NCBI GenBank assembly: GCA_030583865.1
Contig: CP129479.1
Location: 2,637,053-2,701,052 of the forward strand
From: Thermodesulfobacteriota bacterium
Lineage (GTDB): Bacteria > Desulfobacterota > GWC2-55-46
Length of the DNA: 64,000 bases
Reading direction: 5' to 3'
Shown here one piece after another: positions 1,426 through 51,720 of the stretch. The notes under the pieces were generated by a model. That model was not told the DNA's origin. It worked only from the letters and a program-made list of their open reading frames with translations, and did not search any database. Numbering within the stretch: position 1 is the first letter of the stretch; every line of letters begins with the position of its first letter. The position numbers and the translations under genes were made by a program.

Positions 1426-1567
1426 GGCAACCTCTAAAAATTAGAGATTTTTCCCGCAATCAAGGAAGGCCGGGAATAAAAAGCGGAGCATATATGCAAA
1501 TATGTGAGCATTTTTATTCCCGGCCTGACACAGGGTCCGGGGAAAAGATCAATTTTTAGAGGTTGCC
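1426..1567. repeat. Family-1 MITE-like palindromic element, full copy
   Basis: Terminal inverted repeats GGCAACCTCTAAAAATT / AATTTTTAGAGGTTGCC. Inner stem GGCCGGGAATAAAAA / TTTTTATTCCCGGCC. Core AGCGGAGCATATATGCAAATATGTGAGCA. Near-identical copies occur at 12269, 18377, 25003 and 36782. Confidence 0.8.
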
Positions 1568-3492: not shown

Positions 3493-5460
<1,968 letters not shown>

Positions 5461-5677
5461 TCATACCACTCCATGCCCGGGTTTTCACCAGCAAAAAACC
5501 CGCTCTTGGGCCTGGACCTGATTGTATGTTCACGAAATGAACGATACCACGGGAAAGGAACTCGCGTCAAGAGTGAAGAGCTTGTTTTCCGGAACAAAAC
5601 CGTAGAGATATCCAGCCTGAACCCGCAGGCGAGATTCAGGGCGGAGATCTTGAAGGAAAGGCGGCTGGTTGTAGGGG

Positions 5678-6094
5678 CTATTCCCTGTCAGAGGCTTTCA
5701 AGACCGCGTCTATGGCCGACTTTATGGCCCTGGAATGGGACTCATCCGGGCTTCGGAGTACCTTGAGGAGTTTCATTATATAGGCGGCCTCTTCCGCCTC
5801 GGGCGAGCCGACATCCACGGCCTGCCCCCTGGGTGCGTAAAGGGCCGGGCTTTCGCCTGCCAGAGGGGCTTTCCCGGGCTTGTAGATCTCGCCTCTGCCG
5901 TCAATAAGCCAGTCGAGGCCCACCCCGAACCTCTCGGAAAAGGCGAGCACAAGGCCCGAGGGCATCTCTCCGCGCTTTTTATAGTTGGAGAGCGCCTGCG
6001 GGGTGACCTCCAGGGCCCGCGCAACCGCAGAGTCGTTCTTGAGGCGCGCAGCCCACTTCATCCTCTCTATCACATCCGCGTAATTTACGCCCAT
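5678..6094 (-). CDS. Helix-turn-helix DNA-binding protein, phage CI-repressor-like
   Basis: MKWAARLKNDSAVARALEVTPQALSNYKKRGEMPSGLVLAFSERFGVGLDWLIDG resembles a CI-repressor N-terminal HTH. It sits between manB and gmd. Confidence 0.6.
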   Translation of the reverse strand: MGVNYADVIERMKWAARLKNDSAVARALEVTPQALSNYKKRGEMPSGLVLAFSERFGVGLDWLIDGRGEIYKPGKAPLAGESPALYAPRGQAVDVGSPEAEEAAYIMKLLKVLRSPDESHSRAIKSAIDAVLKASDRE

Positions 6095-6120: not shown

Positions 6121-6170
6121 AAGGCAGGCCTGACACAGAGTCCGGGGAAAAGATCCTTTTTGAGGTTGCC
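6121..6170. repeat. Family-1 element, right-arm fragment only
   Basis: GGCCTGACACAGAGTCCGGGGAAAAGATCCTTTTTGAGGTTGCC matches the right arm of the copy at 1426-1567. Confidence 0.7.
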
Positions 6171-12268: not shown

Positions 12269-12409
12269 GGCAACCTCTTAAAATTAGAGATTTTCCCGCT
12301 TTTCACGGAAGGCCGGGAATAAAAAGCGGCGCATAGATAATGTGTGGGCATTTTTATTCCCGTAACACTACCCAGAGTCCGGGGAAAAGATCAATTTTTT
12401 AGAGGTTGC
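12269..12409. repeat. Family-1 MITE-like element, full copy
   Basis: Same inverted-repeat termini and core as 1426-1567 with a few substitutions; lies directly next to a family-2 copy. Confidence 0.8.
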
Positions 12410-12415
12410 AAAAAC

Positions 12416-17926: not shown

Positions 17927-18280
17927 TCAGGGCTCCGCGAGCGCGGCTGTTTCTTTCGTATCGTCGCAGCAGGACCTTACGTATGTGTCGATGTCTCCGA
18001 CAGGCCTTGCGAAGGTGTATTTGAACGGGTCTGCTATAAGCTTATCGGCGGTGACTCCCACGCTTCTGGCCGGGATGGTGAAGGGCAGGCCAACGATGAA
18101 GACCGCGGTGCCGAGGACGGTAGCCACTATGCCCAGCGGCCTCCCGACCAGCACGTCGAATATTATCTCGGTCGAAGAGGGCTCCCCTTTTTCCATTGTC
18201 GGGGAGGCCTGTGACGGAGTAACGGCGAGAAATAAGACAAGGGCTGCAAGGAGCGCGGAGACGGTCCTTTTCATGGGCAT
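17927..18280 (-). CDS. Hypothetical exported / membrane protein
   Basis: N-terminal signal-like MKRTVSALLAALVLFLAV, a central hydrophobic segment, and GC-rich codon usage consistent with the genome. Confidence 0.4.
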   Translation of the reverse strand: MPMKRTVSALLAALVLFLAVTPSQASPTMEKGEPSSTEIIFDVLVGRPLGIVATVLGTAVFIVGLPFTIPARSVGVTADKLIADPFKYTFARPVGDIDTYVRSCCDDTKETAALAEP

Positions 18281-18376
18281 TCCCCCCTGCTTTTTTGCCG
18301 CCGGATTTCAGGTCCGGCGAGGCATATATAATAATAGCCCCGGTTTTCCGGTTTGCAAGCCCGCACGGAAATAAAA

Positions 18377-18519
18377 GGCAACCTCTAAAAAATTAGAGAT
18401 TTTTCCCGTAATCAAGGAAGGCCGGGAATAAAAATGCTCACATATTATCATATATGCTCCGCTTTTTATTCCCGGCCTGACACAGAATCCGGGGAAAAGA
18501 TCAATTTTTAGAGGTTGCC
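18377..18519. repeat. Family-1 MITE-like element with the central core in inverted orientation
   Basis: Termini match the other copies, but the core reads TGCTCACATATTATCATATATGCTCCGCT, which is the reverse complement of the core in copies at 1426 and 12269. Confidence 0.8.
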
Positions 18520-19319
18520 AGGGCTTCGACGAGCTGCCTGAAGGAGGGATGATACGGGCCCGCGGCAATGGATTCCTCAAGCTCTTTCCCGGGCTGGAGG
18601 CCCATGCGGATCACGGGCACGCCTGCCTCGTCAAGGAGCCGCTTGACCTGCACGCATGCCTCTGTCATTTCTTCGAGCCCCCACGGGCTGTAGAGCCCGC
18701 CTAAATACATCCTGTGCATGGCCGTGCCCTTGAGGACGAGCGAGGGATAGACCCTTACGAAATCAGGCTTGAGGGCGATTATTTTTTGGGTTGTGTCGAG
18801 TATGGTTTCAATCGAATCGCCCGGGAGGCCGGGCATGAACTGGAGGCCCACCTTGAGCCCGGCGTCTTTAAGCGCGGCCACGGCAGCTATTGTCGCATCC
18901 GGGCCGTGCCCCCTTCCGGAGAGCGCAAGCACCTTCGGGTCCATTGACTGCACACCGAGCTCTACTGTCCTTACCCCATTATGCAAAAGAAAAACAGCCC
19001 TTTGAACGTCGATGTAGTCGGGCCTGGTAGAGACCCTTATTGAATCGAGCCTGCCGTCCCTTATAAACGGGAGAGCCGCCTCGAGATAGTCTTTCTGGGT
19101 CTTTTCCGGGAGGCCGGTGAAGCTGCCGCCGTAAAAGGCGGCCTCGCGCGCGCCCTTGCCCTTCCATGTGGAAAGATAGAGCTCGATTTGCCTTGCCGCC
19201 TCCGTTGGCTCTGGCAGCTCCCTTACCGCGGATATGCCCTTCTGGTCGCAGAACACGCACTGGTGGGGGCAGCCGCCGAAAGGGATGAAGATGGGGATTA
19301 TGAGCTGCTTATGCGCCAT
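18501..19319 (-). CDS. Radical SAM protein (ELP3 / TIGR01212-like)
   Basis: IFIPFGGCPHQCVFCDQ CxxxCxxC cluster motif near the N-terminus; the last ~6 codons and the stop are encoded by the right TIR of the family-1 element. Confidence 0.7.
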   Translation of the reverse strand: MAHKQLIIPIFIPFGGCPHQCVFCDQKGISAVRELPEPTEAARQIELYLSTWKGKGAREAAFYGGSFTGLPEKTQKDYLEAALPFIRDGRLDSIRVSTRPDYIDVQRAVFLLHNGVRTVELGVQSMDPKVLALSGRGHGPDATIAAVAALKDAGLKVGLQFMPGLPGDSIETILDTTQKIIALKPDFVRVYPSLVLKGTAMHRMYLGGLYSPWGLEEMTEACVQVKRLLDEAGVPVIRMGLQPGKELEESIAAGPYHPSFRQLVEALATSKN

Positions 19320-20061
19320 GCAGTTCCCCGCCGGGCATCCTTTCAGGGAAGAACTCGGTGAAGCGTTCGGTCATGTTCCCGAGCGCCTCCCCGGCTGCGG
19401 CCTGCTCCGCGTCTTTTTTCCTGGTTGCCGAGCCAGAGCCGAGCACCCTTCCGTTGACCATGACCTCCACCTCGAAGGTCTTTTTGTGCGGCGGGCCTTT
19501 TTCGCCCTTCAAAATATAGACCGGGGCTTCCTTGAATAGCCTCTGCGAGAGCTCCTGCAGCTTCGGCTTGAAATCGAAATGACCGGGCGATTCGAGCGCC
19601 TCCTGCAATAGAGGAGAAAAGAGGGTCTCGACATATTCGAAGGTCTTCTGGAACCCGTGGTGGAAGTAGACGGCGGCTATGAAGGCCTCGAAGACGCCGG
19701 CGAGTATGGAGGGGTTGTCGACCCCGCCGCCCCCGCGCTCGCCCTTGCCGAGAAGGAGGTATTTGTCGAGCGAGAGCTCCTTTGCTAGCAGGGCCAGTGC
19801 CTGCCCGTTCACGAGCTTGGCCCTCATCCTCGTAAGCTCGCCCTCGTGTATGTCCGGGAACTTCCTGAAGAGCATGTGGCTTATGATGTTCGAGAGGATG
19901 GCGTCGCCGAGGAACTCGAGCCGCTCGTTGGACTTGAGCCCCGCCCCCTCCTTTTCATTGAGGTAAGACCTGTGGACAAAGACCTTCCTCATGAGCTCGG
20001 GGTCAGTAAAGCTGAAAGGAAGGGTCGCAAGAAATGTTTCAAACGCATTACCGTCTTTCAA
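19309..20061 (-). CDS. rnc: Ribonuclease III
   Basis: HRSY...ERLEFLGDAIL catalytic signature plus a C-terminal dsRBD. Confidence 0.9.
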   Translation of the reverse strand: MKDGNAFETFLATLPFSFTDPELMRKVFVHRSYLNEKEGAGLKSNERLEFLGDAILSNIISHMLFRKFPDIHEGELTRMRAKLVNGQALALLAKELSLDKYLLLGKGERGGGGVDNPSILAGVFEAFIAAVYFHHGFQKTFEYVETLFSPLLQEALESPGHFDFKPKLQELSQRLFKEAPVYILKGEKGPPHKKTFEVEVMVNGRVLGSGSATRKKDAEQAAAGEALGNMTERFTEFFPERMPGGELHGA

Positions 20062-24855: not shown

Positions 24856-24952
24856 TTGATTGCAGATTCGAATTCTGTCATTCTGAACGAAGTGAAGAAT
24901 CTGGTTTGGTTGAAATACGAGATTCTTCGTCGCTTCGCTTCTCAGAATGACA
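24856..24952. repeat. Family-2 palindromic element
   Basis: GATTGCAGATTCGAATTCTGTCATTCTGAACGAAGTGAAGAATC...GAGATTCTTCGTCGCTTCGCTTCTCAGAATGACA; followed by the family-3 motif CTCCCCCTGCCCCTCTTTAAGAAAGAGGGG at 24961-24990. Confidence 0.8.
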
Positions 24953-25002
24953 CTCTTAATCTCCCCCTGCCCCTCTTTAAGAAAGAGGGGTGAATTAAAT
25001 AA

Positions 25003-25129
25003 AGATTTTTCCCCGCTTTTCCAGAAGGTCGGGAATAAAAAGCGGAGCATATATGACAATATGTGAGCATTTTTATTCCCGGCCTGACAAAGAGTCCGGG
25101 GAAAAGATCAATTTTTATAAGACAATTCT
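25003..25129. repeat. Family-1 MITE-like element with degenerate termini
   Basis: The core GGGAATAAAAAGCGGAGCATATATGACAATATGTGAGCATTTTTATTCCCGGCC is conserved, but the outer TIRs have diverged. Confidence 0.75.
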
Positions 25130-36776: not shown

Positions 36777-36781
36777 TTGAG

Positions 36782-36920
36782 GGTTCCTCTAAAAATCAGA
36801 TATTTTTTCCGAGGTCGAGGCAGGGCGGAAATAAAAAGCGGAGCATATATGTCAATATGTGAGCATTTTTATTTTCGCCCTAACGAAGAGGTCGGGAAAA
36901 AGAGCGATTTTAGGGGGACC
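36782..36920. repeat. Family-1 MITE-like element, degenerate copy
   Basis: Core GGAAATAAAAAGCGGAGCATATATGTCAATATGTGAGCATTTTTATTTTCGCC with diverged termini. Confidence 0.7.
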
Positions 36921-36923
36921 CTT

Positions 36924-43760: not shown

Positions 43761-44621
43761 TTATTTCTTCTCCGTCCCCGCGTCCGCCTTTTCGCCTGCC
43801 TTCTCGCCCTCCTTACCGTCCTTTCCGGCGTCCGTCTCCTCTATGACCGGAGCCGGCTGGGAATGGCACCTGAAGCAGTCGTCTATGGGGAAGGCCACCT
43901 TGGTATGGCATACGCCGCAGTACTGCCCTGAGATTATCTTCATCATGTTCATCTCCGGGTTCCCGCCCTGCTGCTGCTTGAATATGGACTCGTGGCACGA
44001 GGTGCAGTCCAGGACCTTTGTATGCGCCTTATGCGGGTACTTGACGTCCGGCGGGCTCGGCTTGAACTTGGTCGTCGGGATTATTATGTCCATGTCGAAC
44101 TCGAAGAGCTCGTCGGTTCCGTCCGGGTTTGCCGCGGCTTTTGAGGCGCCGGTCTCCAGCGCCTTTACCCAGTCTACCTTGTTCCCGAAGTAGTCCTTGG
44201 GGTGGTCCTTCAGCCTCTCGGCCATGTTCCGATCTTGCAGAAGGCCCTGTGAATGGCACCTGTCGCATTCAAACGGCGCGAAGGCTATGTTGCCGTTATG
44301 GCAGGTCCCGCACTGCTTGCCCTCGAATATCTCGGCCATGGTTATCTCGGCCGTGCCGGCCTTGAAGCTGAAACCGAGGTCCGTATGGCAGACCTTGCAC
44401 GAGAATTTGTCCCGGTGCACCCAGTGCGGGAACACAACTGGCCGCATGTCGTTCTTGCTCGCGTTCTTGTCAAGGACCACGTTCCCGTACGTCTCAGGGT
44501 TCTTGGGCTTCCTCAGGTCGGTCTCCCATGTCACGCCGGCCTGGGCCCATTGATAGACGAAAAACCCCCCGGCGGCCAGGGCCGCCGCGGTCAAAAATCC
44601 CACTAACCTGATGCTACGCAC
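43761..44621 (-). CDS. Hexahaem c-type cytochrome (two c7/c3-like triheme domains)
   Basis: Signal/TM anchor, six CxxCH motifs (CKVCH, CGTCH, CDRCH, CTSCH, CGVCH, CFRCH) and a K/E-rich C-terminal tail. Confidence 0.8.
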   Translation of the reverse strand: MRSIRLVGFLTAAALAAGGFFVYQWAQAGVTWETDLRKPKNPETYGNVVLDKNASKNDMRPVVFPHWVHRDKFSCKVCHTDLGFSFKAGTAEITMAEIFEGKQCGTCHNGNIAFAPFECDRCHSQGLLQDRNMAERLKDHPKDYFGNKVDWVKALETGASKAAANPDGTDELFEFDMDIIIPTTKFKPSPPDVKYPHKAHTKVLDCTSCHESIFKQQQGGNPEMNMMKIISGQYCGVCHTKVAFPIDDCFRCHSQPAPVIEETDAGKDGKEGEKAGEKADAGTEKK

Positions 44622-44649
44622 TTTGGACCTCCTTTGCTCCCTTACAATA

Positions 44650-45072
44650 TCAATGACCTGTATGGCATAAGGCGCATAATTTCATGTACTCTACTCTTAA
44701 AGAGCCGGGGTGGATCGCTTTCCCGTGAGGCTCGTGGCAGGTATGGCAGACCATCTCGCCGTCGTCCGTCAGGGGAAGCCTTGCCGGAACGTGTATATTC
44801 ACTATTAGCCCCATGGGATGGCGGGTGACCGGGTGGTTGCCTATGTTCCCGTGGTGGCACTTGACGCACGTGGTAACCGGGTCCCTGGTAAGGAGCGGCG
44901 GCTGCTCGCTGTGGCACGTCGAGCAGAGGTCTTCCCTCCTGAAATCATGCGGGTTGACGATGACGGAGCGCCCCTCGCCGCCTTCCTCGGCTGCCCTGCA
45001 TTCCCTTGCAGCCAGTCCGGCGGCCGCGGCCATAAGACCCAGCGCCGCTATGGTGGTCAATATTATTTTCAT
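44650..45072 (-). CDS. Tetrahaem c-type cytochrome
   Basis: Signal peptide; CSTCH, CVKCH, CHTCH, CALCH. Confidence 0.75.
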   Translation of the reverse strand: MKIILTTIAALGLMAAAAGLAARECRAAEEGGEGRSVIVNPHDFRREDLCSTCHSEQPPLLTRDPVTTCVKCHHGNIGNHPVTRHPMGLIVNIHVPARLPLTDDGEMVCHTCHEPHGKAIHPGSLRVEYMKLCALCHTGH

Positions 45073-45108
45073 CGATCTCGAAGAGCGCCAGGCGCCTCCG
45101 CCCTGTCC

Positions 45109-47313
45109 TCAATACGAGCAATCGCTCATATTAGTGCAGTCATAATTGACTTCGGTCCCGGGTATCGCGATTTCCTCGAAAGAATCGTTACATACCTTCT
45201 CGGTAGACGGGGTTATGGTCCTGAAGGTTATCTGCCCGTCCATGGCCCCGGTGGTCCTCGGGCTCTTGTACGATTCAACGCACGCCCCGTTCATGAGCCT
45301 GTACCCGAGCGGGTCCGAGTCCTCGAGCGTGCCCGCCGGGGCGTTGCTGCCGTGAATGCCCTTTATCTGGTCCACCGTCTCGGTCGGGTCATACCACCCG
45401 CCGTGGCACGAAAGGCACAGTATCCCGAACTTGTTCGAGTTGTTGCCGGTACCGGTCCCCTGCTTGTAGAAGGGGGAATCGGTCCCGAGCCCGTCGGGCG
45501 GGTGCGAGACCCTCGAATAATTCGCATTCGGGCCGATGTAGCCCTCGTCCCCGTAGACGTCCCTCTTGTGGCAGTTATAGCAGAAATTCCTGGTGGTGCC
45601 GAAACCAGTGGTGTTCGCCTTGAGTATCCATTTCTCGTTTGAGCCGTGCACGCCCGAGGGGTCGGAGGAGACGCTCGAGCCGTGGCAGGCGGAGCATGTA
45701 ATTGTGCTGTCGTGCGTTACGTTGTAATAGCCGGTGCGCTCCCAGGTCTCCGGGAGGTCGACATACCTGAACGTGTTCGTAAGCCCGAGGCCGTTGTCCG
45801 GCCAGTTGAGGTTTGCGCGCGGCGAGCCGGGAGGCACGTTCCTGCCCTGGGCGAAGACCGGGTGAAAGCCCATGTTGTTGATGTTGAAGTCCGCCGTGGG
45901 GTCGGACTGCTCGACCTGAGACCCGTCCGCGTTGCCCGAAGGCGCATAAGGCGGCATGCTGCCGTAGGCGTAATACGAATGGCATTTTATGCAGAGATAC
46001 CCTTCCAGGTTATTGCCGCCTGGGTTGGTGGAGGTAAAATCGACCACTTCGTAGGCCGTGACCGGCTCCCCGGCAACGGGCCAGGACGACGGCTTGACTC
46101 CCCAGCTCCCCAATATGTTCGCGCCGATAATGTTCCCGTTCACGCCGCCCATGGCCTGGTTCCCTTCCATGGCGCCGTGCGGGTTGTGGCAATCGGCGCA
46201 CTCCGCATGCCTGTTGTCCCTCAGGTTTTCAGCCGATTCCCTGGCCGGGTCGCCGGCGAACTCCCTCGAAGGGACATGCAGCCCCCATGTGGCCTTGACA
46301 TCGTGCTTGTAGGGGTATTCGAATTGCGCGGTAAGGTCCTTGGAGGCCACGTTCCCGTTGTGGCAGTTGAGGCATAGCCATTCCTCGTTCTCGATATTCG
46401 AGGTGGACGGGTTCGTGCCCTTCAAAAGCGCCTTCCCGGCCGCGCCGCCGTGCGAGCGGTGGCAGGCAAGGCAGCTCTGCATCTCGGGCGTGTCGTCGCT
46501 GTAACCGGTTTCGCCCAGGTCCTCGTGCCAGGGGTTCACCCCCTCGCCGTTCCACGTGGCCGTGGACGTGCCGTGCACCGAAGGGTTTGTCTCCCAGTAT
46601 CTCTTGTCATGGCATATCTGGCAGAGGCCGCCGTTTGAGAGGCTCCCGAGGAGGAACTTGGGGAACTCGGTTCCGTGCGGGTCGTGGCAGCTCGTGCACT
46701 GCATCATCCCCGCGCCGTCGAGCTTGACTCTCTGCTGGGACTCGCTCAGCGGGTCTCTTATCTCCTCGTTCGACGGATATGAGCGGGAGTACTCGAAGGA
46801 TATGGGGTGGTCATCCATCAGGTCCGTGCCTATATGGGACGTCGATATGGAACTCAGCTTCCCTTCCTCTATGCCGGCGCCGGTCACGCTCAGCTCCCCC
46901 CCGAGCCCCTTTCCCGGAAGGTTGAGGAGCGAGCCTATTGCTATGGTGCCGTCATGGCATGCCAGGCAGAGCTTCGATGAGCCGGTCGGCTGCCCGAGCG
47001 TAGGGGAGTTGGGGTCCAGCGTGGCGGCAAGGGTCTGGCTCATGTAGACGTCGTAGGTGGCCCCGGGGTCCTGCTTGTTCCACGCCGGCCCGGAAGGGTT
47101 TGCGTTATGAGGCGTGTGGCAGAAGACGCAGACCTCGGTCGTCTCGCCGGACTTTATCTCCCCCGGGGAAAGCGAGCCGAAGTTGTGCTTCGTGCCTGTG
47201 ACCGACGCAAGCGAATATCCGGCGGCAGCGGCCAGCAGCCCGGTTACCAACGCCGCGGCTATCACGTTACGTCCCTTTTTCCCGGCCTTTCCCTTCATCG
47301 GATTTAACGACAT
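45109..47313 (-). CDS. Large secreted multihaem c-type cytochrome (11 CxxCH)
   Basis: 734 aa with a signal peptide and eleven CxxCH motifs. Several have a distal His (CHTPH, CHDPH, CHNPH), typical of paired-CxxCH multihaem domains. Confidence 0.8.
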   Translation of the reverse strand: MSLNPMKGKAGKKGRNVIAAALVTGLLAAAAGYSLASVTGTKHNFGSLSPGEIKSGETTEVCVFCHTPHNANPSGPAWNKQDPGATYDVYMSQTLAATLDPNSPTLGQPTGSSKLCLACHDGTIAIGSLLNLPGKGLGGELSVTGAGIEEGKLSSISTSHIGTDLMDDHPISFEYSRSYPSNEEIRDPLSESQQRVKLDGAGMMQCTSCHDPHGTEFPKFLLGSLSNGGLCQICHDKRYWETNPSVHGTSTATWNGEGVNPWHEDLGETGYSDDTPEMQSCLACHRSHGGAAGKALLKGTNPSTSNIENEEWLCLNCHNGNVASKDLTAQFEYPYKHDVKATWGLHVPSREFAGDPARESAENLRDNRHAECADCHNPHGAMEGNQAMGGVNGNIIGANILGSWGVKPSSWPVAGEPVTAYEVVDFTSTNPGGNNLEGYLCIKCHSYYAYGSMPPYAPSGNADGSQVEQSDPTADFNINNMGFHPVFAQGRNVPPGSPRANLNWPDNGLGLTNTFRYVDLPETWERTGYYNVTHDSTITCSACHGSSVSSDPSGVHGSNEKWILKANTTGFGTTRNFCYNCHKRDVYGDEGYIGPNANYSRVSHPPDGLGTDSPFYKQGTGTGNNSNKFGILCLSCHGGWYDPTETVDQIKGIHGSNAPAGTLEDSDPLGYRLMNGACVESYKSPRTTGAMDGQITFRTITPSTEKVCNDSFEEIAIPGTEVNYDCTNMSDCSY

Positions 47314-47341
47314 TTCCTTCCTGCGGTCGAGCCCGCTGGGT

Positions 47342-48415
47342 TCAGCCTTCCCCGAGGTAGTCGAAGACCTGCACCCTGCTATTATACGAATCCGAGACGT
47401 AGATCCTGTTGCCGTTGTCTATGAATATGCCGCTCGGAAGCCAGAAGGTCCCGGCTGATTTGCCGAGGGTGCCGAAATTCAGGAGGAACCTTCCTTGCCT
47501 GTTGAATATCTGTATGGTATCAAAGAGGGCGTCGGCCACGTAAATGTTCCCGTCCTTGTCGAGGGCGATGCCCTTGGGCCTGCCGAAATCGCCTGTTCCG
47601 TCTCCCTGCCTGCCGAAGGAGCTCAAAAACTTCCCGTTGCCGTCGAATATCTGGACCCTGAAGTTCAACGAATCAACGACGTACACGTCGCCGCCCCGGT
47701 CCAGGGCCAAATCAACGGGGTAGTTGAACTCCCCTGTTTCTTTCCCTCTCCTTCCGAAGGAGCCGACCTCCGCGCCCTTCAGGTCAAAAATACGGATGCT
47801 ATGAGACGCGGTGTCGGATATGTATACCCTTGATTCAGTCTTGCTTATCGCGATGCCCGTGGGCCTTTCGCCCGCGGCGAACGAGAAGAGGAACTTGCCC
47901 TTGGGATTGAAGACAAAGGCCTTGCGGGCCACTGAATCGGTGACATAGATATTGTTCTGGCCGTCGGTGGCCGCCGCTATCGGGGATTCGAACCGCTCTT
48001 CCCCGGGCTCTTCTATGAGTGTGTAGTTCTTCCTGGCCAGGTCGAAGACATGCACCTTCTTGAAGGCCGTGTCCGCCACTATGAGCCTTCCGGCGGAATC
48101 GACGGTTACGCCGTACGGCTTTATGAGCCGGTCCCTTTTTTCACCGAGTATGAAATCGGCAATACGCCTGAAAAACCCCGTGTTCGCGCCGATGTCCTCG
48201 GGCCTGCTGATAGTCCGTAAATAACTTACCCTTGCCGGTTCGGGAGGAGACGGCCAGATAAGGGGCGTCTGCGGCGTAAGCATGCCGCTTTTCTGCTCCG
48301 GACCGAAAGCGCAGCCCGCGAGCGTAAGCGCGGCGAACGCCAACGCCGCGGCTAGCCTGAGGGCGCCTGATGACCGGGCCCTTTCGGCCCTTCTGTCTTT
48401 CGGGGCTGCATGCAT
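47342..48415 (-). CDS. NHL-repeat beta-propeller lipoprotein
   Basis: LTLAGC lipobox and six repeats of the form ...NIYVTDS / ..YVADT.. / FNxPxGIA..., typical of NHL propellers. Confidence 0.75.
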   Translation of the reverse strand: MHAAPKDRRAERARSSGALRLAAALAFAALTLAGCAFGPEQKSGMLTPQTPLIWPSPPEPARVSYLRTISRPEDIGANTGFFRRIADFILGEKRDRLIKPYGVTVDSAGRLIVADTAFKKVHVFDLARKNYTLIEEPGEERFESPIAAATDGQNNIYVTDSVARKAFVFNPKGKFLFSFAAGERPTGIAISKTESRVYISDTASHSIRIFDLKGAEVGSFGRRGKETGEFNYPVDLALDRGGDVYVVDSLNFRVQIFDGNGKFLSSFGRQGDGTGDFGRPKGIALDKDGNIYVADALFDTIQIFNRQGRFLLNFGTLGKSAGTFWLPSGIFIDNGNRIYVSDSYNSRVQVFDYLGEG

Positions 48416-48427
48416 CAGGAAATGACC

Positions 48428-49024
48428 CTACTTCCTGTGACAGTACTGGCAGATATCAAGCCCGGCGGACCTGAACCGCCGGGTAGTGTCGGCGCCCCAG
48501 TCGGCCCTGCCCGGAAGAAGCCCTCTCTCGTGCGGGTTGTGGCAGGTTGAGCATATTATCTGGCCTGTTTTCGGGTCGAGCGGCAGGATAGTGGGTATGT
48601 CCTTCAAGGTCATCCTGATGTTGTCGTGAATGGTCTTGGGGGGCACCCTCAAATGGTTCGGCGCTTTCTTCAAAACGCTAAGCATGGCCGTCGGCTGGAC
48701 CGTGGGGTGGACAGGGACCGTATGGCAGCTCCTGCAGAGCTGGACCGGGTCCTCGAAATAGAGCTTCACGTCCTTTATGGTCAGGTTCTTGTCGATTGCC
48801 GGGACTTCCTTATGGCATACAACGCACGTGCCCCAGAGCACCTCTCCGGTCTCGCCTATCTGGTTATGCGGGTTGATTACCGTCAAGAGCGCCTCGGCCC
48901 TCGGGTAGGGGGGCGGCTCGGGCGGGGCAGGAACGGCCGGGGCCTCTGCCGACCAGGCTTCGCCGGAGAAAAACAGGGCGCCTGCTAAAAAGATGACCTT
49001 GAGGATGCCGGATTTCCTTGACAT
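48428..49024 (-). CDS. Tetrahaem c-type cytochrome
   Basis: Signal peptide; CVVCH, CRSCH, CSTCH, CQYCH. Confidence 0.75.
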   Translation of the reverse strand: MSRKSGILKVIFLAGALFFSGEAWSAEAPAVPAPPEPPPYPRAEALLTVINPHNQIGETGEVLWGTCVVCHKEVPAIDKNLTIKDVKLYFEDPVQLCRSCHTVPVHPTVQPTAMLSVLKKAPNHLRVPPKTIHDNIRMTLKDIPTILPLDPKTGQIICSTCHNPHERGLLPGRADWGADTTRRFRSAGLDICQYCHRK

Positions 49025-49072
49025 GTTGGGCTACCTTCTTTGGATGCCGGCCCTGAGGCCGTTTCGTTTAGC

Positions 49073-50209
49073 TTACTCTTGCGTAAAGGCGTAAATGGAG
49101 CCGTCCTCGGAGCCTACGTAAACGGCATTGTCCGTGACCGCCGGAGAGGACTGGATGCTCCCCTCGGTCATGTACTTCCAGACCGTCTCGCCGGTATAGA
49201 GGTCCACGGCGTAAAAGCCGCCGTCGTCACAGCCGACGTAAAGGAGCCCGGAAGCCGAGACCGCCGGGGTCGAGTTCACCTCGTCCGGGAACTTGTAGAC
49301 CGCGAGCTCCCTGCCGTCCTTCCTGTTGAAGACGGTCACGTCGCCCTTTTTGGAAGCCATGTATATCCTGTCGGCGGTGACCACAGGAGAGGCGTAGGCG
49401 AGCTTGCCGAGGTTCTTCCGCCATACGTATTTGCCGTCTTTTACATTCAGAGCGTAAAGGGTCCTGTTATACGAGGATACGTAGACTATGCCGTCCCGCA
49501 CTGCCGGGGTGGAGTATATGGCGGATTCGGTCCTCAACTGCCAGTTCCTTCCGCCGCTCTTCGCGGAGGCGGAGTATATCACCCCGTTCTTGCCCGCGTA
49601 ATATATCGCGCCGTCGGCATAGGCCGGGGAGGCGTATATGCCGCTGTATTTTTCGTAATCCGGGACGTTCATCCTCCAAACCCTCTGGCCGTCCTTTGTC
49701 CGGAGGGCGTAGAGGTAGAGGTCCTTGGAGCCGATATAGACATTGTCCTCGGCTACAACAGGCGAAGTGAGGACCGGGCCGCCGGTCTCGTGCTTCCAGA
49801 CGAGCTTGCCGGTCTCGGCCTCGAGAGCGTAGACGGAGCCGTCCCTGGAGCCGAAATAGACCCTGCCCTTGTCGACCGCCGGGGACGAGAATATCTCGCC
49901 GTTGGTCTCGAACTTCCAGACAACGGCCCCGGTCTTCTCGTCAAGGGCGTAAAGGTGCTTGTCATACGAGCCCACGAAGACCTTGCCCTTGTAGACCGCC
50001 GGAGATGAATAGACCCTCCCGCCGGTCTTGAACTTCCACTTGAGCGCCAGGGGCGGCCTCGGCGCCCTCTCGACAAAGGGGACGTTATCGGGGCTCTTCA
50101 TGAACTTCGGCCAGTCCGCGGCGGCCTGTCCGAAAAAAAGCGGCAGCGCCGCCAATGAGAGGGCCAGCGCTGCTGTTATCTTCCCTGCTGTTGACCTCGA
50201 TTGCTGCAT
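49073..50209 (-). CDS. PQQ-like (BamB-type) eight-bladed beta-propeller protein, secreted
   Basis: Signal peptide and repeated ...G.VYALD..TG..VWK... PQQ-repeat pattern (eight or more times). Confidence 0.75.
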   Translation of the reverse strand: MQQSRSTAGKITAALALSLAALPLFFGQAAADWPKFMKSPDNVPFVERAPRPPLALKWKFKTGGRVYSSPAVYKGKVFVGSYDKHLYALDEKTGAVVWKFETNGEIFSSPAVDKGRVYFGSRDGSVYALEAETGKLVWKHETGGPVLTSPVVAEDNVYIGSKDLYLYALRTKDGQRVWRMNVPDYEKYSGIYASPAYADGAIYYAGKNGVIYSASAKSGGRNWQLRTESAIYSTPAVRDGIVYVSSYNRTLYALNVKDGKYVWRKNLGKLAYASPVVTADRIYMASKKGDVTVFNRKDGRELAVYKFPDEVNSTPAVSASGLLYVGCDDGGFYAVDLYTGETVWKYMTEGSIQSSPAVTDNAVYVGSEDGSIYAFTQE

Positions 50210-50217
50210 AGTTCCTC

Positions 50218-50805
50218 TCAGACCTTCATCTTTGAGATTTTGTGGGATATGCTCTTCCGCTCCCGGGTTATCCCCTCGAGGGCCGCGGCAAGCTCCTTTG
50301 CGTCCCGGGCGGAGGCCTCAAGCCCCCTCGAAGCCTTCTCAAGGGCTTGACCGGATTTTTTCAGGGGACCGAAAAAGGACGCGAGCGAGATGGTCATCGC
50401 ATTGAACGCGTCCGCCAGGGCGCCCGGCATTTCGCTCGAGACCCGCCGCGTAAGGTCGCCACTGGAGACCCCCTTCACGGCCTCCCTGAGCTCGATGAGC
50501 GGGAGCTCTATCCGGCGGAGGACAAAGTAGCCGACTACCGCGGAGACGGACAGGACCGCTGAAACGGTTACGGCTCCGAGTTTCAGCAAGACAGGGACCG
50601 CGATTTCAGAGGTGGTCCGTATCTTTATATGGATTTTATATAACCCCTGTCCAAGTTCCCTGTCAATTAAAAAATAGGCGGCGAGGAGGTTCAGAAGGAG
50701 CCCCAGGAGGACCGTTCCGGCAAAGGCAGCCGCGAACCTCGACTGCAGCTTCCGGTCTATGAAATAGTTCCTGCGCCTCCAACTGGCATCGCGCGCGTCC
50801 CGCAT
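50218..50805 (-). CDS. HAMP-domain membrane protein without output domain
   Basis: Two TM helices, then a HAMP motif (LPLIELREAVKGVSSGDLTRRVSSEMPGALADAFNAMTISL), then ~60 aa of coiled coil. A paralogue lies at 51707-52333. Confidence 0.6.
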   Translation of the reverse strand: MRDARDASWRRRNYFIDRKLQSRFAAAFAGTVLLGLLLNLLAAYFLIDRELGQGLYKIHIKIRTTSEIAVPVLLKLGAVTVSAVLSVSAVVGYFVLRRIELPLIELREAVKGVSSGDLTRRVSSEMPGALADAFNAMTISLASFFGPLKKSGQALEKASRGLEASARDAKELAAALEGITRERKSISHKISKMKV

Positions 50806-50907
50806 CGCTCCTCCGGGCCCGGGCTCGATTCCGGGCTATATGATAGTACCCTGGAATTAAAACCCCATTAATCCAGGGTTAATTCGTCCATGCTCTCCTA
50901 AAGAGGT

Positions 50908-51720
50908 TCATTTATTGTGGCACGCAAGGCAGAGCCTGCTGTATTCGTTGCTCATGACGAGCTCGTTATGGAGCTTCGAGAACGGGTTATGGCAGCTCCC
51001 GCACCCGACGTTGCCGGCAAAGAGCTTTATCTCGGGCGGGAGCTTGTCCACCGGCTTATACGCGCCCCGGTACTTGCGCCTGGCGTCTATGTAGGATACG
51101 CCAATGGGGTGGCTGAGGCCGGAAAGCCCCGACCTGTGGAATAGCGGCCCCGCGATTTCCCTTCCTCCGACGACCGCGTCCGGCCCTGTCAGGGCGTCGT
51201 GGCAAGCCATGCACCTGAGTGATAGCTCGTCGAGCACGCCCCCGACCTCGGTTGCGACGAACTTCAACGAGGCGGAGCCCGTGACGTGGGCCGAGCCGAG
51301 CGAGAGCTTATGGAGCTCGCTCTCAAGGTCGCCGTGGCAAAGCATGCAGAAGCCGGGGCCCTCGGCCCTGGAGCGGAGGCGGAACGGCCCGAAGCCCTCC
51401 ATGTGCACCGGGTGGCAAGTAATGCAGGTCACGTCCCCCTTCCAATCGAGCGGCAGGTTCGCGGGCACCTGCATCGAGGGCCTCACGTCCACCGGATGCG
51501 ACAGCTCGAACTCGGCCTCGTGGCAGTCCACGCACATCCTCGATATGTCCAGCAGGAAGGCGCGGGGAGTGTCCCCGGGGGACGGCTCGGCAATATGGCA
51601 TTCTAGGCACCGGCCCTTGAAGTCGTGATAGCTCGTCCACTGCCGGGAGTAGAGGAGAGCCGCGGCGCCCACCGCGGCTATTGCCATTGATATGGCCAGC
51701 GCCCTCTTAATCGCCTTCAT
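50908..51720 (-). CDS. Heptahaem c-type cytochrome
   Basis: Signal peptide; CLECH, CVDCH, CITCH, CMLCH, CMACH, CGSCH, CLACH. Confidence 0.8.
   Translation of the reverse strand: MKAIKRALAISMAIAAVGAAALLYSRQWTSYHDFKGRCLECHIAEPSPGDTPRAFLLDISRMCVDCHEAEFELSHPVDVRPSMQVPANLPLDWKGDVTCITCHPVHMEGFGPFRLRSRAEGPGFCMLCHGDLESELHKLSLGSAHVTGSASLKFVATEVGGVLDELSLRCMACHDALTGPDAVVGGREIAGPLFHRSGLSGLSHPIGVSYIDARRKYRGAYKPVDKLPPEIKLFAGNVGCGSCHNPFSKLHNELVMSNEYSRLCLACHNK

What the first reader, a model, noticed from the sequence alone, without database searches (positions are those of the whole stretch)
18377..18519. One family-1 copy has its central core inverted relative to its own flanks
In this copy the outer arms are in the same orientation as all other copies. 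The segment between the inner inverted repeats GGGAATAAAAA/TTTTTATTCCC reads TGCTCACATATTATCATATATGCTCCGCT, which is the reverse complement of the core in the other copies (differing only at TATC versus TTGC). This is the signature of a DNA inversion between the short inner inverted repeats, or of a nested inner element that can insert in either orientation. It is a small invertible segment inside a MITE.
Basis: seen in the sequence. Interest (0 to 1): 0.5.

Follow-up and report, generated by a model that had tools for sequence, protein, structure and literature searches.

The report
One-off hairpin-loop inversion inside a MITE
One copy of a small mobile repeat carries its 28-base centre flipped between two short inverted repeats; this looks like a rare replication or repair accident of a known kind, not a genetic switch.

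Summary
Window 18377-18519 is a full copy of a ~142-bp repeat. Both asymmetric arms are in the family orientation. The 28-nt core (18435-18462), between perfect 16-bp inner inverted repeats, is an exact reverse complement of the family core.

The repeat is a real MITE: it has terminal inverted repeats, many copies, and 4-bp target-site duplications in 13 of 34 complete copies (1.6 expected). It occurs in several related Thermodesulfobacteriota/"Deltaproteobacteria" MAGs.

Of 71 core-bearing copies in the window plus 59 fetched loci, 70 are canonical and only this one is inverted. The orthologous copy in MAG UBA5799 (same insertion site, flanks ~86-89% identical) is canonical, so the flip arose in place in the window's lineage.

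No sigma-70-like promoter or terminator lies in the element. No recombinase or transposase family was found among 50 window ORFs. A 28-bp spacer is too short for recombinase synapsis.

The best explanation is a single hairpin-mediated inversion by template switching or short-repeat recombination. Such events are documented for plastid hairpins and rRNA loops. "Invertible segment" and "nested element in either orientation" are not supported. Read-level heterogeneity could not be tested.

The parts
18377..18519 (+). Full MITE copy c3, the finding: outer TIRs, asymmetric mid-arms, inner inverted repeat, core
   Evidence: As single-stranded DNA it folds into a long hairpin, -37.5 kcal/mol, z = -8.4.
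18377..18393 (+). Outer left terminal inverted repeat (GGCAACCTCTAAAAAATT)
18503..18519 (+). Outer right terminal inverted repeat (AATTTTTAGAGGTTGCC). It also supplies the last codons and the stop codon of the radical-SAM gene on the minus strand.
18419..18434 (+). Inner inverted repeat, left arm (AGGCCGGGAATAAAAA)
   Evidence: I2: 16 nt, 100% complementary
18435..18462 (+). 28-nt core, inverted relative to its own arms and to 70 other copies
18463..18478 (+). Inner inverted repeat, right arm (TTTTTATTCCCGGCCT)
1426..1567 (+). Canonical family copy c1, flanked by a TCAA target-site duplication
12269..12410 (+). Canonical family copy c2 (shorter core; mid-arm variants b and y)
25001..25127 (+). 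Canonical family copy c4 (left TIR replaced by another repeat; right end degenerate)
36781..36922 (+). Diverged canonical family copy c5
6127..6170 (+). Solo right-arm fragment of the family
18331..18358 (-). Sigma-70-like promoter (TTGCAA-16-TATTAT) of the downstream 115-aa gene. It lies outside the element. Its AT-rich -10 region accounts for the core-like inverted match I1.
18501..19319 (-). Radical-SAM gene whose C-terminus (..EALATSKN*) runs into the element. Identical to NCBI WKZ32739.1.
17927..18274 (-). 115-aa gene with an N-terminal signal-peptide-like sequence, downstream of the element

Best explanation
c3 is an old, vertically inherited copy of a ~142-bp MITE. Its central 28-nt loop was flipped once, in place, in the window's lineage.

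Proposed mechanism (inferred, not shown): the perfect 16-bp inner inverted repeats let the single strand fold into a hairpin during replication or repair. Then one of two things happens. Either the nascent strand switches template across the stem, copies the loop from the opposite strand and switches back. Or the two repeat arms recombine at the base of the hairpin. Both replace the loop with its exact reverse complement and leave the stem and outer arms untouched.

The result is a fixed structural mutation, probably neutral. It is not a regulated switch.

Shown here:
- An exact reverse complement bounded by the inverted repeats.
- A derived state relative to the ortholog.
- Uniqueness among 71 copies.
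- A stable predicted hairpin.
For: - The core is 29/29 in reverse complement and 12/29 forward; both arms are in family orientation.
- The boundaries coincide with a perfect 16-nt inverted repeat separated by 28 nt.
- Census: 63 of 64 cores are canonical by motif search. By BLAST plus alignment scoring, 70 are canonical, 1 is inverted and 15 are core-less fragments.
- The orthologous locus L005 (UBA5799, DIDN01000077.1) has identical insertion junctions and flanks 85-89% identical, and carries a canonical core.
- Four other cross-species orthologous pairs keep the canonical orientation.
- Both c3 and c1 fold as long DNA hairpins: -37.5 and -42.7 kcal/mol, z = -8.4 and -9.9.
- Pairing holds across 41 copies: 92.6% of cells are paired. 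Thirteen pairs show changes on both sides, against 4.4 in shuffles and 4-7 in slid controls.
- The size class matches documented events. Plastome inversions of 5-50 bp are flanked by 11-24-bp inverted repeats (Kim & Lee 2005, as cited in PMC12928735). Loop inversions attributed to template switching are reported in rRNA, including bacterial rRNA (PMC8794818).
Against: - The mechanism leaves no footprint that separates template switching from short-repeat recombination or from conversion by another copy.
- The inner inverted repeat of c3 is no more perfect than that of canonical copies, so there is no extra template-switch signature.
- The inverted core is not independently confirmed by other assemblies, because Logan contigs break inside the element.
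- Only 5 copies of the window's own genome were visible, so other inverted copies elsewhere in that genome are not excluded.
Confidence: 0.72

Rival explanations
1. Ectopic conversion. The core of c3 was overwritten by copying from another family copy aligned in the opposite orientation, with the switch points in the two 16-bp inner repeats. This is inter-copy template switching or gene conversion rather than an intra-element flip.
For: - Orthologous copies in different species differ by whole modules: the mid-left a/b variant in 3 of 5 pairs, the mid-right x/y variant in 3 of 5, and the core centre in 5 of 5.
- All four a/b by x/y combinations exist. This suggests sequence exchange among copies.
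- The c3 core variant (GATAAT) differs from that of its ortholog (GAATAAT) and equals that of four other copies.
- The whole element is a quasi-palindrome, so an inverted donor can align with it (44-45 against 55-56).
Against: - It needs two switches within 16-bp homologies plus an inverted donor. The intra-element flip needs only the local hairpin.
- The centre of the core varies in every orthologous pair, so the variant mismatch says little.
- No other copy shows this outcome.
Confidence: 0.12
2. Programmed invertible segment. A site-specific recombinase flips the core between the inner repeats to switch an orientation-dependent function.
For: - Inverted repeats flank an asymmetric core that is strongly conserved across species.
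- One Logan contig (L070) stops exactly at the inner-repeat/core boundary, position 18434. This could reflect a branch between two alleles.
- In-place inversion of Correia MITEs has been reported in Neisseria (Elbeyioglu 2017, as cited in review PMC10969869).
Against: - 70 of 71 copies share one orientation.
- The ortholog and four other orthologous pairs are canonical.
- No promoter-like or terminator-like site lies in the element.
- No recombinase, integrase or transposase Pfam family was found among 50 window ORFs.
- By established knowledge of tyrosine and serine recombinases, a 28-bp spacer is too short for synapsis of two sites.
- The Logan break can equally come from another copy sharing the 30-mer, or from low coverage.
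Confidence: 0.04
3. Nested element. The inner repeat plus core is a separate mini-element that inserted into an outer MITE and can land in either orientation.
For: Short 66-nt forms with only the outer arms exist (L043 4798-4863, L057 5939-6001). The long form could therefore be a composite.
Against: - The orientation and the junctions of the inner part are the same in 70 of 71 copies, so the composite formed once and then amplified.
- No solo inner units were found.
- The ortholog of c3 already carries the inner part in canonical orientation at the same site.
Confidence: 0.03
4. Assembly or sequencing artefact in the source genome.
For: - Strong hairpins cause chimeric reads and coverage dips.
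- No independent contig covers 18435-18490.
- It is a unique event.
Against: - The perfect repeat is only 16 bp, shorter than any usual assembly k-mer. K-mers that join arm-specific bases to the inverted core must therefore exist in the reads (inference).
- The source appears to be a closed 2.75-Mb contig.
- The flanks are 100% confirmed by contigs from at least 16 sequencing runs.
Confidence: 0.06

Closest known systems
Small hairpin-associated inversions in plastid genomes (Kelchner & Wendel 1996, from own knowledge; Kim & Lee 2005, as cited in PMC12928735)
   Same: A short spacer (28 bp here; 5-50 bp reported) is flanked by short perfect inverted repeats (16 bp here; 11-24 bp reported). It is replaced by its exact reverse complement, and the stem is unchanged.
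   Different: Those events are recurrent and homoplasious in organelle non-coding DNA. Here there is a single event, in a bacterial chromosome, inside a mobile repeat.
Template-switch mutations that invert hairpin loops (PMC8794818; also the Löytynoja & Goldman template-switch preprint, bioRxiv 10.1101/038380, listed but not read)
   Same: The loop of a perfectly paired hairpin is inverted with no footprint in the stem. Cases were reported in bacterial rRNA as well.
   Different: The reported loops are mostly 4-8 nt and lie in RNA genes. Here the loop is 28 nt in an intergenic MITE.
Correia repeat-enclosed elements (NEMIS) of Neisseria
   Same: A ~100-160-bp MITE that forms a long hairpin, with a conserved asymmetric core and long and short (internally deleted) forms. 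It sits at gene ends. In-place inversion has been reported (review PMC10969869 citing Elbeyioglu et al. 2017).
   Different: No sequence relationship was tested or is evident. The target-site duplication here is 4 bp; Correia elements duplicate TA (own knowledge). No promoter or IHF-site consensus was found in this core. The reported Correia inversion is of the element itself (as cited; primary paper not held). Here only the innermost 28 nt are flipped.
Flip/flop isomers of parvovirus and AAV terminal hairpins (own knowledge)
   Same: Two reverse-complement states of the unpaired part of a terminal hairpin are generated by replication through the hairpin.
   Different: Flip and flop occur at about 1:1 because each replication round makes both. 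Here the ratio is 1:70, so the flip is not part of the element's propagation cycle.

Membership tests
MITE (miniature inverted-repeat transposable element) | Terminal inverted repeats | tested here: met
   A 15-17-nt outer inverted repeat is present in c1, c2 and c3 and in most fetched copies.
MITE (miniature inverted-repeat transposable element) | Target-site duplication of fixed length | tested here: met
   13 of 34 complete copies have a perfect 4-bp direct repeat at the ends, against 1.6 expected from shuffled pairing.
MITE (miniature inverted-repeat transposable element) | Small, non-coding, many dispersed copies | tested here: met
   ~142 bp. There are 5 copies plus 1 fragment in 64 kb. 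The right-arm 21-mer scan returned 58 loci from five MAGs, one of them (L004) an unrelated chance match.
MITE (miniature inverted-repeat transposable element) | Autonomous partner IS with the same TIRs | tested here: inconclusive
   No TIR pair 0.8-2.5 kb apart was seen in about 0.5 Mb of fetched loci or in the window. Whole genomes were not searched.
Hairpin-loop small inversion (template-switch or short-IR type) | The inverted segment is an exact reverse complement bounded by short inverted repeats | tested here: met
   29/29 in reverse complement; 16-nt perfect inverted repeat with a 28-nt spacer.
Hairpin-loop small inversion (template-switch or short-IR type) | Derived state relative to an outgroup at the same locus | tested here: met
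   The ortholog L005 is canonical and has identical insertion junctions.
Hairpin-loop small inversion (template-switch or short-IR type) | Generated during replication or repair through a hairpin intermediate | not testable with these tools
   Only a predicted stable DNA hairpin is available.
Site-specific invertible switch (inverton / phase-variable element) | Both orientations coexist in a population | not testable with these tools
   There is no read access. Logan contigs break inside the element.
Site-specific invertible switch (inverton / phase-variable element) | Dedicated recombinase encoded nearby | tested here: not met
   No recombinase, integrase or transposase Pfam family was found among 50 ORFs covering 0.5-60.3 kb of the window. 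The rest of the genome was not seen.
Site-specific invertible switch (inverton / phase-variable element) | The invertible segment carries a promoter or other orientation-dependent signal | tested here: not met
   No sigma-70-like promoter or intrinsic-terminator-like site was found in c3 or c1 on either strand. No Rfam family was matched.
Correia/NEMIS family | TA target duplication and Correia TIR sequence (features recalled from own knowledge) | tested here: not met
   The target-site duplication here is 4 bp. The TIR is GGCAACCTCTAAAAATT. The resemblance is in architecture only.

The most novel reading that the evidence does not exclude
The core flips recurrently at this locus, and possibly at others in this genome, through its hairpin. 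Both orientations would then coexist in the population and the asymmetric, cross-species-conserved core would act as an orientation-dependent signal. That would make a MITE-borne micro-switch needing no dedicated recombinase. One Logan contig ending exactly at the inner-repeat/core boundary (L070, position 18434) is compatible with this, but it has simpler explanations.
Probability: 0.05. Interest if true: 0.7.

Novelty: new member of a known kind. Interest (0 to 1): 0.2.

Why it matters
In itself it matters little. It is a clean bacterial example of a 28-bp hairpin-loop inversion inside a mobile repeat. It illustrates that quasi-palindromic MITEs undergo the same template-switch or short-repeat inversions known from plastid hairpins and rRNA loops.

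It is a useful caution for scans. An inverted repeat flanking a flipped segment is not evidence of a switch unless both states recur.

The surrounding MITE family may deserve description in its own right. It has an asymmetric core that is nearly invariant across species, mosaic mid-arm modules, short and long forms, and other MITEs nested inside it.

Tried and rejected
- JGI metagenome scan for the inverted-specific junction GAAGGCCGGGAATAAAAATGCTC gave 0 hits. The orientation-neutral arm 21-mer gave only 1 hit there, so the zero is uninformative.
- The viral contig scan gave 0 hits.
- Exact-protein look-ups of both flanking genes were meant to find contigs spanning the element in other samples. 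They returned contigs from at least 16 sequencing runs, 100% identical to the flanks, but all break inside the repeat. The 117-aa start variant is not on record.
- Relatives of the radical-SAM gene gave no further spanning copy. L077 holds only a 32-nt arm remnant. L082 holds a different MITE at the site. L085 breaks at the element.
- Promoter idea: the core resembles a sequence at 18317-18336. That sequence is the -10 region of an ordinary sigma-70-like promoter outside the element, and the core itself has no promoter consensus. Inspection by eye for sigma-54, IHF, CRP and Fur motifs found nothing conserved across copies.
- Rfam gave no hit at gathering thresholds. The permissive search gave only chance hits far below gathering.
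- The plasmid collection gave no match.
- Orientation relative to flanking genes, from rough ORF calls: 24 antisense, 12 sense, 10 convergent, 3 divergent. This is only a weak bias, so there is no strict directional role.
- A symmetric pattern search in the loci cannot discriminate orientation and was discarded.

Full report
**Observation**

Window 18377-18519 is a 143-bp element. Its parts are as follows:
- Outer inverted repeats GGCAACCTCTAAAAA / TTTTTAGAGGTTGCC.
- Asymmetric mid-arms.
- A perfect 16-nt inner inverted repeat, AGGCCGGGAATAAAAA (18419-18434) / TTTTTATTCCCGGCCT (18463-18478).
- 28 nt between the inner arms.

Motif searches and an alignment found four more copies in the window, at 1426-1567, 12269-12410, ~25001-25127 and ~36781-36922. 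There is also a right-arm fragment at 6127-6170.

The two arms of the family differ enough to orient each copy. The c3 left arm scores 55 against the family left-arm consensus (57 nt) and 44 against the reverse complement of the right arm. The c3 right arm scores 56 against 45. So the arms of c3 are in family orientation.

The core is a different matter. It matches the family core at 12/29 positions read forward and 29/29 read as reverse complement. It is identical to the core of canonical copies L013, L020, L021 and L054. None of 200,000 shuffles reached 27/29. The only correction is that the spacer is 28 nt, not 29.

**What the repeat is**

A scan of one genome per species with a 21-mer from the right arm, which does not depend on core orientation, returned 58 loci. 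Almost all come from four related MAGs: "Deltaproteobacteria bacterium" H5_GWC, UBA5799, NC_groundwater_1638 and DP16D_bin.2.

The window's radical-SAM protein is identical to NCBI WKZ32739.1. That entry is labelled "MAG: Thermodesulfobacteriota bacterium" and its longest contig is 2,751,635 bp.

Evidence that the repeat is a transposition-derived MITE:
- 13 of 34 complete copies carry a perfect 4-bp direct repeat at their ends (TCAA, TTAA, TAAA, TTCA, TTGA and others), against 1.6 expected.
- It matches no Rfam family and nothing in the plasmid collection.
- As single-stranded DNA it folds into a long hairpin: -37.5 kcal/mol for c3 and -42.7 for c1, with z = -8.4 and -9.9.
- Across 41 aligned copies, 92.6% of structure cells are paired. 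Thirteen pairs show changes on both sides, against 4.4 in shuffles and 4-7 in slid controls.

**How unusual the inverted core is**

A motif census found 64 cores in the window plus loci. Sixty-three are canonical, including two diverged copies checked by eye.

A more sensitive BLAST and alignment-score census found 86 places: 70 canonical, 1 inverted (c3) and 15 fragments without a core.

The locus L005 (UBA5799, DIDN01000077.1) is the ortholog of c3. Its insertion junctions are identical on both sides, and its flanks are 85-89% identical over about 4 kb. It carries the core in canonical orientation. Four further cross-species orthologous pairs all keep the canonical orientation.

The inverted state is therefore derived. 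It arose in place after insertion, and it is rare.

**Tests of the switch idea**

- No sigma-70-like promoter or intrinsic-terminator-like site lies in c3 or c1 on either strand.
- The core-like inverted match at 18317-18336 is the -10 region of an ordinary promoter, TTGCAA-16-TATTAT, for the downstream 115-aa gene. It lies outside the element.
- Pfam scans of 50 window ORFs found housekeeping genes and no recombinase, integrase or transposase. The genes found include glycosyltransferases, UvrA, PdxA, SurA, RNase III, MiaB-like, MnmA, NifU/NifS, MutL, cytochromes and haem synthesis genes. Mfd was identified separately from the precomputed annotations.
- Element orientation relative to neighbouring genes is only weakly biased.
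- By established knowledge, 28 bp between crossover sites is too short for synapsis by tyrosine or serine recombinases.

**Mechanism**

The geometry is a 28-bp spacer between 16-bp perfect inverted repeats. That falls inside the range reported for hairpin-associated small inversions in plastomes: 5-50 bp flanked by 11-24-bp repeats (Kim & Lee 2005, as cited in PMC12928735). It also matches the "loop inversion only" class of template-switch mutations described for rRNA hairpins, including bacterial ones (PMC8794818).

I therefore infer a single hairpin-mediated event. Either the nascent strand switched template across the stem and back, or the repeat arms recombined at the base of the hairpin.

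A variant cannot be excluded: conversion from another copy aligned in inverted orientation. The family is visibly mosaic. Orthologous copies differ by whole mid-arm modules in 3 of 5 pairs on each side, and all four module combinations occur.

An assembly artefact is unlikely. The perfect repeat (16 bp) is shorter than usual assembly k-mers, and the source looks like a closed contig. Still, no independent contig covers the core.

**What could not be tested**

Population heterogeneity could not be tested. Exact-protein look-ups found contigs 100% identical to both flanks in at least 16 sequencing runs. All of them stop inside the repeat, at 18404, 18418, 18431 or 18434 on one side and at 18491 on the other.

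One contig (L070) stops exactly at the inner-repeat/core boundary. This could reflect a second allele, another copy sharing the 30-mer, or low coverage.

The JGI metagenome scans were uninformative: 0 hits for the inverted junction, but only 1 hit for the neutral arm pattern.

Closer relatives at this locus did not help. L077 holds only a 32-nt arm remnant, L082 holds a different MITE, and the L085 contig breaks at the element.

**Comparison and verdict**

In architecture the family resembles Correia/NEMIS elements: a long hairpin MITE with a conserved asymmetric core, long and short forms, and a position at gene ends. In-place inversion has been reported for those elements (review PMC10969869 citing Elbeyioglu et al. 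2017). This family is not a member, because its target-site duplication is 4 bp and its TIRs differ.

The flip itself belongs to the known class of small hairpin-loop inversions. It is a real but ordinary one-off structural mutation. Interest is low (0.2).

The most novel reading not excluded is recurrent, recombinase-free flipping of a functional core. I give it about 5%.

Noticed in passing
L049 6290-6426; L007 ~5410-5552; L019 ~4135-4260; L014 ~5650-5780; window ~24940-25000: A second MITE family (ends ~GGTCTGATTAATTC ... GAATTAATCAG, containing CGCTCGCAATGA) is nested inside family-1 copies. In three copies it sits in the left TIR after ..AAATTAG. In L049 it sits exactly in the centre of the core. 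Window copy c4 has its left TIR replaced in the same way, next to the repeat TTTGTCATTCTGAGCGAAGCGAAGAATCT (window 20274, 22944, 24874).
   Followed up: partly
L043 4798-4863; L057 5939-6001: There are short 66-nt forms of the family that lack the inner repeat and the core. Both have the TIR variant GGCACCCTC...GAGGGTGCC. They are either internal-deletion derivatives or the ancestral outer element.
   Followed up: partly
Orthologous pairs: window c3/L005, L020/L040, L027/L003, L046/L054, L055/L006: Orthologous copies in different species differ by discrete alternative modules: mid-left AATCAAGG versus TTTTCCCGG, and mid-right GGCCTGAC versus GTAACTAC. They also always differ in the 2-3 central bases of the core. 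The rest of the element is at least as conserved as the coding flanks. This suggests inter-copy conversion or selection on the core.
   Followed up: partly
window 18501-18519 (minus strand): The right TIR of c3 supplies the last six codons and the stop codon of the radical-SAM gene. The protein ends ..EALATSKN*, whereas relatives without the element end ..EALV* or ..EAII*.
   Followed up: yes
L082 ~3808-4000; also next to copies in L009, L010, L049: A third MITE-like repeat (~190 bp, ends CAGGCTGCTGAAAAA / TTTTTCAGCAGCCTG) occupies the c3-orthologous intergenic site in GCA_023384475.1. In GCA_019912665.1 (L077) the site holds only a 32-nt remnant of the family-1 right arm. This intergenic site is an insertion hot spot.
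   Followed up: partly
window 19309-20061 (minus strand): An RNase III gene lies directly upstream of the radical-SAM gene whose 3' end runs into the hairpin-forming element. This is probably coincidence. It is noted because RNase III cleaves Correia hairpins in Neisseria mRNAs.
   Followed up: no
L070 start (= window 18434); L071/L072 start (= 18431): Logan k=31 contigs from some runs end exactly at, or 3 nt before, the inner-repeat/core boundary of c3. Most other runs end at 18404. The cause is unresolved: a second allele, another copy, or low coverage.
   Followed up: partly
window 43761-51720 (minus strand): A cluster of multihaem cytochrome genes (Cytochrome_C7, Paired_CXXCH_1, an MtrC/MtrF-like domain) is interleaved with NHL and beta-propeller proteins. 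It is a candidate extracellular electron-transfer locus.
   Followed up: no
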